From: a virus
Taxonomy: Duplodnaviria > Heunggongvirae > Uroviricota > Caudoviricetes
Reading direction: 5' to 3' (one strand)
IMG/VR virus record: IMGVR_UViG_3300015185_000041
Coordinates: 1-5,601 of that record
Length of the DNA: 5,601 nt
A program made the translations under genes and the position numbers. The notes under the pieces are model-generated. The model was not told where the DNA came from, did no database searches, and was given only the letters and a program-made list of their open reading frames with translations. Shown piece after piece: positions 2,064 to 3,041 of the stretch. Position 1 is the stretch's first letter. Each line of letters opens with the position of its first letter.

Positions 2064-3041
2064 GTGTTCGGGGGTTTTATGAGCAGCAAGCTTCATGGTC
2101 TTGTCTGGGAAGGGTGCGCCTTCACCGGCATGATCTTATCCAGGGTGGCGGTTATGGCCCGTCTTGCAGACTACAGCAATGACGAGGGCGTGTCATGGCC
2201 TGCCATTGAAACTATCCGGCGTCAGATCGGTGCAAGAAGTGAATCCACAGTGAAATCGGCTATTGCAGAACTGGCGAAAGAGGGCTGGCTGACGAAGGAA
2301 GAGCGTAAGGTCGGTGGGCGTAATGTAAGCAATATCTATCGGCTTAATGTGGAAAAACTCGAAGCAGCTGCGGCGGCGGCGCGTGAGTCATATAAACCGA
2401 AAAGAAAAATTAGCCCGGCAAAAAATGACCCGTTAACAGTTGACCCGTCAAATATTGACCCCTCAACGGTTGACCCGTCAAATTTTGATGGATCAACTGT
2501 TGATAAAAAACTGCCGATTAGGGGGCCGATGATTGACCCCGATCCGTCAGTATTAAAACCTGATCCGTCAGATAAAAGATCTTCTTGTCCGGACGCTTCG
2601 CAACCGGACCCGCAGACGGCTGAACAGGATTTTTTAACCCGACACCCTGACGCGGTTGTGTTCAGTGCGAAAAAACGCCAGTGGGGAAGTCAGGAAGATT
2701 TGGTGTGCGCACAGTGGATCTGGGGACGAATCGTGAGTCTTTACGAGCAGGCGGCCAGCTATGATGGCGAGATCACTAGACCGAAAGAACCCAACTGGAC
2801 AGCATGGGCCAATGACGTTCGCACAATGCGGATGCTGGATGGCAGAACTCACAGACAAATTTGTGAAATGTTTGGGCGTCTCCAGCGGGATTCGTTCTGG
2901 GTAAAAAACATCATGAGTCCGGCAAAACTCCGGGAAAAATGGGATGAACTGGTTATCCGCCTGGGGCGTTCGCCTGCGCAGCGTTGCGTGAATCACATTT
3001 CTGAACCGGACACTGAAATTCCGCCGGGCTTCAGGGGGTAA
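2064..3041 (+). CDS. Replication initiator / replisome organizer: N-terminal winged-HTH, iteron-encoded linker, C-terminal DnaT-like domain (325 aa)
   Basis: The ORF opens at GTG 2064; ATG 2079 (MSSKLHG...) preceded by GGGGG is an alternative start. The repetitive linker (DPLTVDPSNIDPSTVDPSNFDGSTVD) is encoded by tandem DNA repeats, as ori-lambda lies inside O. The C-terminal tail ...VNHISEPDTEIPPGFRG closely matches the recalled E. coli DnaT tail ...[17 protein letters not shown]. Confidence 0.75.
   Translation: MFGGFMSSKLHGLVWEGCAFTGMILSRVAVMARLADYSNDEGVSWPAIETIRRQIGARSESTVKSAIAELAKEGWLTKEERKVGGRNVSNIYRLNVEKLEAAAAAARESYKPKRKISPAKNDPLTVDPSNIDPSTVDPSNFDGSTVDKKLPIRGPMIDPDPSVLKPDPSDKRSSCPDASQPDPQTAEQDFLTRHPDAVVFSAKKRQWGSQEDLVCAQWIWGRIVSLYEQAASYDGEITRPKEPNWTAWANDVRTMRMLDGRTHRQICEMFGRLQRDSFWVKNIMSPAKLREKWDELVIRLGRSPAQRCVNHISEPDTEIPPGFRG
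2426..2515. repeat. Putative replication-origin iterons: five to six tandem 15-bp repeats (core TTGAC-CC-GTCAA)
   Basis: Head-to-tail 15-mers: TGACCCGTTAACAGT, TGACCCGTCAAATAT, TGACCCCTCAACGGT, TGACCCGTCAAATTT, TGATGGATCAACTGT, then a degenerate TGATAAAAAACTGCC. Related CCGTCAG copies occur at about 2541-2570. An A-rich tract (about 2395-2425) flanks them on the left. Confidence 0.7.

What the first reader, a model, noticed from the sequence alone, without database searches (positions are those of the whole stretch)
2064..3041. Replication initiator fuses an O-like DNA-binding head to a DnaT-like tail, with no helicase-loader gene following
The N-terminal part is a winged-helix-like replication-organizer region, the middle is a repeat-encoded flexible linker, and the last residues (SEPDTEIPPGFRG) match the C-terminal tail of host primosomal protein DnaT as I recall it. 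The next gene is a small Ren-like ORF, not a P/DnaC/DnaB-type loader. That points to origin-bound recruitment of the host PriA/PriB/DnaT-DnaC pathway instead of a phage-encoded loader.
Basis: partly seen in the sequence, partly recalled or inferred. Interest (0 to 1): 0.55.

Follow-up and report, generated by a model that had tools for sequence, protein, structure and literature searches.

The report
Prophage initiator carrying DnaT's C-terminal tail
This is the replication initiator of a lambda-like E. coli prophage, and it ends in the same 20-residue tail as the host restart protein DnaT; across phages that tail sits next to DnaC-type helicase-loader genes, which suggests what the tail does in both proteins.

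Summary
The ORF (true start probably ATG 2079) encodes a winged-helix origin binder. A disordered linker follows, and its DNA is a 15-bp-period iteron array. The last 20 residues match E. coli DnaT 14/20, both at the extreme C-terminus. The next gene is DUF977/Ren-like, and no loader or helicase is annotated in the best-matching full prophage.

Three corrections are needed.
- The DnaT likeness is the tail only. The folded C-terminal domain is lambda-O-type, not DnaT-type.
- In 56 of 80 near-identical copies, the same initiator is followed 7-10 nt later by a DnaC-like gene. This window is the loader-less minority form.
- Tail type tracks loader type. Upstream of 78 phage DnaC-like genes, 72 proteins end in IPxGF[RTKV]G, on at least 9 N-terminal scaffolds, including Rac YdaU-YdaV. 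Initiators paired with lambda-P-like loaders carry Trp-type tails instead (0/79 and 0/11 GFRG).

Best reading: the tail docks a DnaC-family loader, and here that would be host DnaC-DnaB. Recruitment of PriA/PriB is less likely. The DnaT parts known to contact them are absent here, and the tail is not part of the preprimosome models. No binding was tested. Interest is moderate to high, because how DnaT recruits DnaB/DnaC is still unknown.

The parts
2079..3041 (+). Replication initiator CDS, 320 aa (the mechanical ORF begins at GTG 2064)
   Evidence: ORF list. RefSeq start at 2079. PHROG 391 'replication initiation O-like', E 4e-115, full length. 914 homologues at E<=0.001.
2079..2390 (+). N-terminal winged-helix DNA-binding domain (residues 1-104), HTH_36 / DnaD-N-like
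2403..2567 (+). Disordered Asp/Pro/Ser-rich linker (residues 109-163), encoded by the repeat DNA
   Evidence: pLDDT below 50 over residues 109-163.
2414..2503 (.). Iteron-like tandem array, 15-bp period (30-bp super-period), palindromic core TTGACCCGTCAA; the presumptive origin, lying inside the initiator gene
   Evidence: TRF and the repeat finder. Lowest GC in the gene, 0.37-0.47. 72 of 74 family genes carry an array at the same relative place. The lambda and phi80 origins lie inside O and gene 15 (PMC5509034).
2538..2571 (.). Two copies of CCYGATCCGTCAG, 21 bp apart, each with a GATC site, just right of the iterons
   Evidence: the repeat finder family D2. Function not tested.
2610..2963 (+). 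Folded helical C-terminal domain (residues 178-295), homologous to the lambda O / phi80 gp15 C-terminal domain
   Evidence: tblastn to lambda O 35% identity, E 1e-18, and to phi80 gp15 36%. pLDDT 82-95. No Pfam model matches. No similarity to the DnaT C-terminal domain.
2979..3038 (+). DnaT-type C-terminal tail, QRCVNHISEPDTEIPPGFRG (residues 301-320), predicted disordered
   Evidence: BLASTP 14/20 to DnaT 160-179, E 1e-7. pLDDT below 50. 43/66 nt identical to the dnaT 3' end, with many synonymous differences. The motif is kept in Enterobacteriaceae and endosymbiont DnaT.
3040..3077 (.). Mosaic junction. In most near-identical relatives a DnaC-like gene and a DUF1627 gene (about 1.5 kb) lie between the initiator stop and the DUF977 gene
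   Evidence: Homology to L014 is 99.6% up to 3039 and resumes at 3078 at 91.5%. ORFs of L014. 56/80 contigs have the DnaC-like gene, 21/80 match the window.
3082..3504 (+). DUF977 / Ren-like gene; not a loader
   Evidence: Pfam DUF977 E 6e-29 and PHROG 142 E 4e-48. Motif shared with lambda Ren, E 2e-7.
1372..2056 (+). Upstream early-right genes in the same orientation: Cro-like HTH (1372-1647) and YdaT/CII-like (1631-2056)
   Evidence: Pfam and PHROG hits. Same order as Rac ydaS-ydaT-ydaU-ydaV.

Best explanation
The gene encodes the origin-binding replication initiator of a lambdoid prophage. It is built from four exchangeable modules.
1. An N-terminal winged helix, inferred to bind the iterons.
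2. A disordered linker whose coding DNA is the iteron array, so the origin lies inside the gene as in lambda.
3. A lambda-O-type helical C-terminal domain.
4. A disordered 20-residue tail identical in motif to the tail of host DnaT.

Proposed mechanism (inferred, not shown): the extreme C-terminal peptide of such initiators decides which helicase loader is docked at the origin. Trp-type tails (LDxxNTDWxYG, HWNSPEAWENTL) go with lambda-P-type loaders. The DnaT-type tail ([ST]xPDxxIPxGFRG) goes with DnaC-type loaders. Most copies of this very initiator have a phage DnaC paralogue immediately downstream. This window lacks it, so the initiator would dock the host DnaC-DnaB complex directly and bypass PriA, PriB and DnaT.

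The same logic suggests two further points. The conserved tail may be DnaT's own link to DnaC/DnaB. And the dnaT-dnaC operon resembles a phage initiator-loader cassette.
For: Shown:
- Domain layout and disorder.
- Iterons inside the gene, conserved in 72/74 relatives.
- C-terminal domain homology to lambda O and phi80 gp15.
- Tail match to DnaT.
- The tail is kept at the protein level despite synonymous divergence.
- The tail is kept in Buchnera, Profftia and Tachikawaea DnaT at 32-45% overall identity.

Association data:
- The identical initiator is followed by a DnaC-like gene (48% identical to E. coli DnaC) in 56/80 viral contigs.
- Starting instead from 78 phage DnaC-like genes, 72 upstream proteins end in [IV]PxGF[RTKV]G. 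These span at least 9 N-terminal and at least 5 pre-tail domain types, in 27 clusters at 70% identity.
- Rac YdaU (DUF1376, an unrelated body) ends VNTVSLPDSAIPPGFRG and precedes YdaV.
- Host dnaT lies 2 nt upstream of dnaC.
- P-like loaders are never paired with this tail: 0/49 GFRG-tail loci against 11/25 other loci, Fisher p 1e-6; 0/79 in phi80-type contigs. Lambda O ends LDLTNTDWIYGVDL.

The loader-less form is common, not a one-off:
- 21/80 near-identical contigs.
- About 412 of 5426 complete E. coli genomes have the initiator and DUF977 contiguous.
- 47/49 GFRG-tail loci in a one-genome-per-species sample lack a loader.
- The complete lambda-like phage PhiR49_1 encodes only such an initiator.

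[quoted passage not shown] The DnaT C-terminal domain in those models comes from the 84-153 fragment, so the tail is unmodelled (PMC13377028).
Against: - No binding was tested, and no DnaT-DnaC contact has been documented (PMC5778457).
- The tail codons lie 2-10 nt from the loader gene. The two could therefore travel together by physical linkage rather than by function.
- The viral-contig samples are redundant. The P-like set is nearly clonal.
- Published roles of the DnaT tail are different: trimerisation (Szymanski 2013, as reviewed in PMC5314882) and cooperative ssDNA binding (PMC4132743).
- Keck and colleagues favour the DnaT N-terminal domain as the DnaB/DnaC recruiter.
- The 'DYS-IPxGFRG' tail subclass (22 loci, including PhiR49_1) was never seen next to a phage DnaC-like gene.
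- Six proteins upstream of DnaC-like genes end differently (FIPEDF, FISEDF, PPEFN).
Confidence: 0.5

Rival explanations
1. The tail mimics DnaT in order to bring the PriA/PriB restart primosome to the origin. Host DnaT and DnaC then load DnaB.
For: The tail is DnaT's, and DnaT works within the PriA/PriB/DnaT preprimosome (PMC13377028). No loader is encoded in this prophage. The tail's partner in DnaT has not been determined.
Against: PriB is contacted by DnaT's acidic linker. PriA is contacted by the three-helix C-terminal domain, modelled from residues 84-153. Neither element is detectable here. The tail co-occurs with DnaC-like genes on many scaffolds, which a PriA/PriB-recruiting peptide would not predict.
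Confidence: 0.15
2. The tail is a self-association or ssDNA-binding aid, as reported for DnaT. It helps initiator oligomers assemble or hold unwound origin DNA, and has no loader specificity.
For: Removing DnaT's last 18 residues turns trimers into dimers (Szymanski 2013, reviewed in PMC5314882; PMC5778457). DnaT 84-153 binds ssDNA more weakly and less cooperatively than 84-179 (PMC4132743).
Against: The tail sits on at least 9 unrelated N-terminal and at least 5 pre-tail domains. A conserved tail-to-core contact is therefore unlikely. This model also does not explain why P-partnered initiators with the same C-terminal domain type carry a different tail.
Confidence: 0.15
3. The module in this window is a defective remnant. 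Recombination removed the DnaC-like gene, the prophage no longer replicates autonomously, and the tail is only inherited baggage here.
For: The closest relatives carry the DnaC-like gene. Homology breaks exactly at the stop codon. The host prophage contains several truncated genes.
Against: The same 41-nt initiator-to-DUF977 spacing recurs with initiators only 57-60% identical, in E. albertii and E. ruysiae. About 412 complete E. coli genomes have the contiguous form. Loader-less GFRG-tail modules dominate the species-level sample. A complete lambda-like phage genome has one. The ORF is intact.
Confidence: 0.15

Closest known systems
Lambda O and phi80 gp15 (origin-binding initiators of lambdoid phages)
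   Same: Same gene position after cro and cII-like genes. Iterons lie inside the gene's own linker-coding region. The C-terminal domain is homologous (35-36% identity, E 1e-18). A Ren-like gene lies downstream.
   Different: The head is HTH_36, not Pfam Phage_rep_O. Iteron period is 15 bp, against about 21 bp in phi80. There is no P gene. The tail is DnaT-type rather than LDxxNTDWxYGV.
E. coli DnaT (primosomal protein i; NCBIfam NF002770, Pfam PF17948)
   Same: The last 20 residues match, including SEPDxxIPPGFRG at the extreme C-terminus. They are predicted or known to be flexible (PMC5778457).
   Different: There is no DnaT N-terminal domain, no matching linker and no three-helix ssDNA-binding domain. 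This protein binds an origin; DnaT joins PriA/PriB on forks.
Rac prophage YdaU-YdaV and other initiator plus DnaC-like cassettes
   Same: Same tail (YdaU ends VNTVSLPDSAIPPGFRG). Same upstream ydaS/ydaT-like genes. A DUF977 or DUF1627 gene lies downstream. Most copies of this initiator have a YdaV-type gene.
   Different: The YdaU body is DUF1376. This window has no DnaC-like gene.
DopC of Cellvibrionales/Oceanospirillales (Brezellec et al. 2017, PMC5509034)
   Same: An HTH_36 head joined to a DnaT C-terminal motif, derived from a lambda-O-like gene.
   Different: DopC is chromosomal and lacks iterons. It is described as lacking the O C-terminal domain, and it is paired with a P-like DopE. Here the O-type C-terminal domain and the iterons are present, and there is no P-like gene.
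Prophage 'DnaT-like ssDNA-binding domain-containing proteins' (NCBI naming)
   Same: These are phage-type proteins of 250-540 aa with a DnaT-like C-terminus. Many end in IPxGFRG.
   Different: Those carry the whole DnaT C-terminal domain. This protein has only the tail, and RefSeq names it merely 'helix-turn-helix domain-containing protein'.

Membership tests
Lambda-O-type phage replication initiator | N-terminal origin-binding winged-helix domain | tested here: met
   HTH_36 E 2e-6. The AF2 winged helix and fold matches support this. The domain is not Pfam Phage_rep_O, which lambda O and phi80 gp15 match.
Lambda-O-type phage replication initiator | Iteron array (origin) inside the initiator's own coding sequence | tested here: met
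   15-bp-period array at 2414-2503. 72/74 relatives have one at the same place. Binding and origin activity were not tested.
Lambda-O-type phage replication initiator | C-terminal domain homologous to that of lambda O | tested here: met
   tblastn residues 153-300 against lambda O, 35% identity, E 1e-18; phi80 gp15 36%.
Lambda-O-type phage replication initiator | Partner P-type loader encoded immediately downstream | tested here: not met
   The next gene is DUF977. No P-like hit in the window's prophage. 0/49 GFRG-tail relatives have one.
DnaT (NF002770 / PF17948) | Whole-protein match above the curated cut-off | tested here: not met
   NF002770 scores 16.7 bits against a cut-off of 201, over positions 159-179 only.
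DnaT (NF002770 / PF17948) | Three-helix-bundle ssDNA-binding C-terminal domain | tested here: not met
   No PF17948 hit even at E<=1. hhalign probability 0.1% without the tail. Both profiles are shallow (Neff about 2), so very remote homology is not excluded.
DnaT (NF002770 / PF17948) | N-terminal oligomerisation domain and acidic PriB-binding linker | tested here: not met
   BLASTP finds nothing outside the tail. The window's linker is Asp-rich, but it is iteron-encoded and unrelated in sequence.
DnaT (NF002770 / PF17948) | Conserved flexible C-terminal tail ...[ST]EPDxxIPxGFRG | tested here: met
   14/20 identity, end-anchored, E 1e-7. The motif is conserved in 120 DnaT clusters.
Pfam HTH_36 (PF13730) | Score above the gathering threshold | tested here: met
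   27.8 bits against 25.
Initiator plus DnaC-like loader cassette (Rac YdaU-YdaV type) | IPxGFRG-type tail on the initiator | tested here: met
Initiator plus DnaC-like loader cassette (Rac YdaU-YdaV type) | DnaC/IstB-like AAA+ gene immediately downstream | tested here: not met
   Absent in the window and its prophage. Present in 56/80 near-identical relatives.
DopC (domesticated O-like gene) | Chromosomal, without iterons, and paired with P-like DopE | tested here: not met
   Prophage context, iterons present, no P-like gene. Definition taken from PMC5509034.
DnaC-docking function of the tail | Physical binding of the tail to DnaC/YdaV or to DnaB-DnaC | not testable with these tools
   Only co-occurrence was measured.

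The most novel reading that the evidence does not exclude
The 13-20-residue tail shared by DnaT and many enterobacterial phage initiators is the element that docks DnaC-family loaders (or DnaB-DnaC). If so, it is the missing link by which the PriA/PriB/DnaT preprimosome recruits the helicase. The chromosomal dnaT-dnaC operon would then descend from a phage initiator-loader cassette. Phage initiators would choose their loader (P-type, DnaC-type, own or host) simply by swapping a short C-terminal peptide.
Probability: 0.4. Interest if true: 0.8.

Novelty: new variant of a known kind. Interest (0 to 1): 0.6.

Why it matters
How the E. coli restart primosome hands over to DnaB-DnaC is still described as unknown in 2026 (PMC13377028). 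No function beyond oligomerisation and ssDNA cooperativity has been assigned to DnaT's conserved tail.

Phages provide a natural experiment. The same tail has been grafted onto many unrelated origin-binding proteins, almost always next to a DnaC-type loader gene and never next to a P-type one. This points to a concrete and cheap test: tail peptide against DnaC, YdaV and DnaB-DnaC.

It would also explain how very common 'initiator-only' prophage modules, found in hundreds of E. coli genomes, could replicate without their own loader. Finally, it gives an annotation rule: the last ~15 residues of an O-like protein predict its loader partner.

Tried and rejected
- **C-terminal domain as a DnaT three-helix bundle.** Rejected. 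hhalign probability is 0.1%, and no Pfam DnaT or Phg_2220_C hit appears even at E<=1. The profiles are shallow.
- **Recent DNA transfer of the tail from dnaT.** Rejected. Only 43/66 nt are identical, with synonymous changes in most shared codons.
- **A loader or helicase hidden elsewhere.** tblastn with DnaC, DnaB, phi80 gp14 and P-like queries found none in the 33-kb prophage region or in the whole PhiR49_1 genome.
- **DnaB-like helicases downstream of relatives.** The ORFs of about 445 aa turned out to be Dam, C5 or ParB-type methyltransferase-like genes, not helicases.
- **Literature.** The phrase 'DnaT-like' gives zero hits. YdaU/YdaV papers say nothing on the tail. McCool 2004 is not held. 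I found no paper on a DnaT-tail-DnaC contact.
- **Database search with the tail alone.** Not attempted, because 20 residues cannot reach significance in billion-sequence libraries.
- **Beta-clamp or SSB-tip mimicry.** Considered. The Gln of clamp motifs is not conserved. An SSB-tip-like ending occurs only in a few exceptions. Left open.
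Full report
**What the window is.** The 5.6-kb window is the immunity and early-right region of a lambdoid E. coli prophage. In order it holds:
- a RelE/RelB pair (265-746, minus strand);
- a cI/DicA-like repressor (764-1264, minus strand);
- a Cro-like HTH gene (1372-1647);
- a YdaT/CII-like gene (1631-2056);
- the gene in question (2064/2079-3041);
- a DUF977 gene (3082-3504);
- small phage ORFs and a hok/sok locus at the right end.

The best-matching complete genome places it in a prophage beside ompW. That prophage has integrase, excisionase, dicB, a Q-type antiterminator, lysis genes and terminase.

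**Checking the observation.**
- The mechanical ORF starts at GTG 2064. RefSeq and all homologues start at ATG 2079, which follows a GGGGG run, giving 320 aa.
- Residues 109-163 are predicted disordered.
- Their DNA contains a tandem array at 2414-2503 with a 15-bp period and the palindromic core TTGACCCGTCAA. Two CCYGATCCGTCAG repeats follow. This is the lowest-GC stretch of the gene.
- The protein ends QRCVNHISEPDTEIPPGFRG. E. coli K-12 DnaT ends [20 protein letters not shown]. BLASTP gives 14/20 identities, 18/20 positives, E 1e-7, and both stretches are anchored at the C-terminus. The NCBIfam DnaT model and three PDB DnaT chains hit only this stretch.
- The next gene is DUF977, PHROG 'Ren-like'. 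It shares lambda Ren's C-terminal motif.
- No loader or helicase is annotated or detectable in the full prophage.

- The folded C-terminal domain (residues 178-295, pLDDT 82-95) is homologous to the C-terminal domains of lambda O (35% identity, E 1e-18) and phi80 gp15. It is not homologous to DnaT.
- Without the tail, a profile-profile comparison with the DnaT C-terminal domain gives probability 0.1%.
- Pfam finds no DnaT domain even at E<=1.

The protein is therefore an HTH_36 head, an iteron-encoded linker, a lambda-O-type C-terminal domain and a 20-residue DnaT-type tail. The tail is predicted disordered, as DnaT's is reported to be (PMC5778457).

At the DNA level the tail region is only 43/66 identical to the dnaT 3' end, with synonymous differences in most shared codons. 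The peptide is therefore conserved by selection and was not recently copied. In DnaT itself the motif is nearly invariant across 120 Enterobacteriaceae clusters. It survives in Buchnera, Profftia and Tachikawaea DnaT that are only 32-45% identical overall.

**The origin.** Of 74 complete family members from different species, 72 have a tandem array 300-500 nt into the gene, with periods of 15, 22-24 or 30 bp. This mirrors ori-lambda inside O and the annotated gp15 sites inside phi80 gene 15. I infer that the repeat-encoded linker is the origin. Binding was not tested.

**The decisive context: tails swap, and they track the loader.** Family members share the head and C-terminal domain but end in alternative short peptides. 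I sampled one genome per species (79 loci) and identified the downstream genes by clustering, Pfam and tblastn.
- Initiators ending HWNSPEAWENTL, EWNTAQGWEDVL or ...TDWIDGIE...GVLP are followed at once by a lambda-P-like gene (PF06992) in 10/10 cases. One further 'other-tail' locus also has a P-like gene.
- Lambda O and phi80 gp15, which work with P and gp14, end LDLTNTDWIYGVDL and LDFNNTDWAYGVIR.
- None of 49 initiators with GFRG-type tails has a P-like gene, against 11 of 25 others (Fisher p 1e-6).
- Two GFRG-tail initiators are followed by a DnaC-like gene (L105, L113). The other 47 have methyltransferase, PerC/YfdN, DUF977/DUF1627, KilA/ANT, RusA or DUF968 genes downstream.
- No DnaB-like gene was found anywhere in these loci.

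**The closest relatives do have a loader.**
- Among 80 IMG/VR contigs with an initiator 89-100% identical to the window's, 56 carry a 248-aa DnaC-like gene. It is 48% identical to E. coli DnaC and starts 7-10 nt after the initiator stop. A DUF1627 gene and then DUF977 follow.
- Twenty-one contigs have the window's arrangement.
- Homology between the window and such a contig is 99.6% up to position 3039. It resumes at 3078 at 91.5%. This is a mosaic junction at the gene end, not a ragged deletion.
- The 41-nt initiator-to-DUF977 spacing recurs with initiators only 57-60% identical, in E. albertii and E. ruysiae.
- About 412 of 5426 complete E. coli genomes have the initiator and DUF977 contiguous.

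Both forms are therefore established.

**The reverse test.** I started from phage DnaC-like genes, using an alignment headed by host DnaC, which gave 79 viral loci.
- The ORF ending just upstream terminates in [IV]PxGF[RTKV]G in 72 of 78 cases.
- These upstream proteins fall into 27 clusters at 70% identity, with at least 9 different N-terminal and at least 5 different pre-tail domains. The tail is thus the constant feature on otherwise shuffled proteins.
- The six exceptions end FIPEDF, FISEDF, PPEFN or PPGFN.
- Rac prophage YdaU is a DUF1376 protein unrelated to the window's initiator. It ends VNTVSLPDSAIPPGFRG and is followed by the DnaC paralogue YdaV.
- In the host, dnaT ends 2 nt before dnaC.
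- A control scan from P-like loaders gave 0/79 such tails, though that set is nearly clonal.
- A phmmer search with DnaT against 1.84 billion representatives found many 250-540-aa phage-type proteins with a full DnaT C-terminal domain. These again carry either GFRG-type or Trp-type tails. NCBI names some of them 'DnaT-like ssDNA-binding domain-containing protein'.

**Mechanism.**
- Shown: the modular anatomy, the tail identity and the co-occurrence statistics.
- Inferred: the extreme C-terminal peptide is the loader-docking element. Trp-type tails would dock P-type loaders, and the DnaT-type tail would dock DnaC-type loaders. In this window, with no phage DnaC paralogue, the origin-bound initiator would dock host DnaC-DnaB directly.

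In the 2026 preprimosome structures, PriB holds DnaT's acidic linker and PriA holds the three-helix domain, which was modelled from the 84-153 fragment. The tail is not in those models, and the authors state that DnaB/DnaC recruitment remains unexplained (PMC13377028). None of the PriA- or PriB-contacting parts is present in this protein.

A complete lambda-like phage genome, PhiR49_1, comes from a panel of lambda-related temperate phages used in plaque-efficiency assays (PMC13190303). It encodes only such an initiator and no loader. Loader-less modules of this kind are therefore probably viable.

**Caveats.**
- Nothing here measures binding.
- The tail codons and the loader start are adjacent, so linkage could produce part of the association.
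- The viral sets are redundant.
- Published roles of the DnaT tail are trimerisation and cooperative ssDNA binding.
- The 2017 review notes that no DnaT-DnaC interaction has been documented.
- Keck and colleagues suggest the DnaT N-terminal domain as the recruiter.
- The 'DYS-IPxGFRG' subclass, which includes PhiR49_1, was never seen with a phage DnaC-like gene.
- Two phages from hosts outside Enterobacterales (Vibrio K74, Burkholderia KS9) have other endings. This fits the model but is anecdotal.

**Comparison with what is known.** The gene works like lambda O and phi80 gp15 and shares their C-terminal domain and internal origin. It fails the 'P partner' feature. It is not a DnaT family member, since only one of four defining features is met.

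The nearest described architecture is DopC, an HTH_36 head joined to a DnaT C-terminal motif (Brezellec 2017, PMC5509034). DopC, however, is chromosomal, lacks iterons and is paired with a P-like gene.

Annotation pipelines already label related proteins 'primosomal protein' or 'DnaT-like'. I found no paper noting that the tail alone is a portable module tied to DnaC-type loaders. That search covers open-access text only.

**Verdict.** The object is a very common prophage initiator, so in itself it is a new variant of a known kind. Its value is the lead it gives on the function of DnaT's tail and on how initiator-only lambdoid modules obtain a helicase.
- Interest: 0.6.
- Confidence in the full best explanation: 0.5. 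Confidence is high for 'initiator with an internal origin and a real DnaT-type tail', and about 0.4-0.45 for 'the tail docks DnaC-type loaders'.

Noticed in passing
window 5292-5601: A hok/sok type I toxin-antitoxin locus. Rfam sok (RF01794) scores 106.7 bits at 5292-5463. A hokD-like ORF starts at 5461 and runs off the window.
   Followed up: partly
window 265-1264 (minus strand): A RelE/ParE-RelB toxin-antitoxin pair sits directly beside the prophage repressor. The repressor is HTH_3 plus a DicA-like C-terminus, with no S24 peptidase match. It may therefore not be cleaved in the LexA/cI manner.
   Followed up: no
L103, L106-L112, L115, L142, L148, L149, L154, L158 (initiator C-termini): A third tail class, ...GRKAWAGIWQQAAEQAA..., occurs in Providencia, Proteus, Yersinia, Sodalis, Buttiauxella and Erwinia prophage initiators. 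These also lack any loader gene downstream. The partner is unknown.
   Followed up: no
L156:3777-4679 and L198, L200, L202, L220 upstream ORFs: Some initiators upstream of DnaC-like genes end in an acidic, Phe-terminal peptide (...TDDDFI, ...QFIPEDF, ...QFISEDF). This is reminiscent of the SSB C-terminal tip. L156 has both an internal IPEGF and this ending.
   Followed up: no
window 2414-2503 and L086-L164 initiator genes: The iteron period is 15 bp (1.5 helical turns) with a 30-bp super-period in many family members, unlike the roughly 21-bp spacing annotated in phi80. Other members use periods of 22-24 bp.
   Followed up: partly
L094, L097, L136, L137, L157: Enterobacterial prophage sequence nearly identical to E. 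coli appears in assemblies labelled Bacillota, Veillonella, Martelella, Vagococcus and Chryseobacterium. This is probably contamination or mis-binning.
   Followed up: no
L005:1739-3018 (E. coli dnaT-dnaC) compared with L014:6986-8716 and L168:2620-4230: The host dnaT-dnaC operon has the same layout as the phage cassettes: a tail-bearing gene, a 2-10-nt gap, then the DnaC-type gene. Many phage proteins carry a full DnaT C-terminal domain. This is consistent with dnaT-dnaC being a domesticated phage cassette.
   Followed up: partly
L014:8738-9487: In relatives, a DUF1627 gene lies between the DnaC-like gene and DUF977. Rac YdaW looks like the same family by position and by the resemblance of its N-terminal sequence, which was not scored. 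The gene is missing from the window together with the loader.
   Followed up: no
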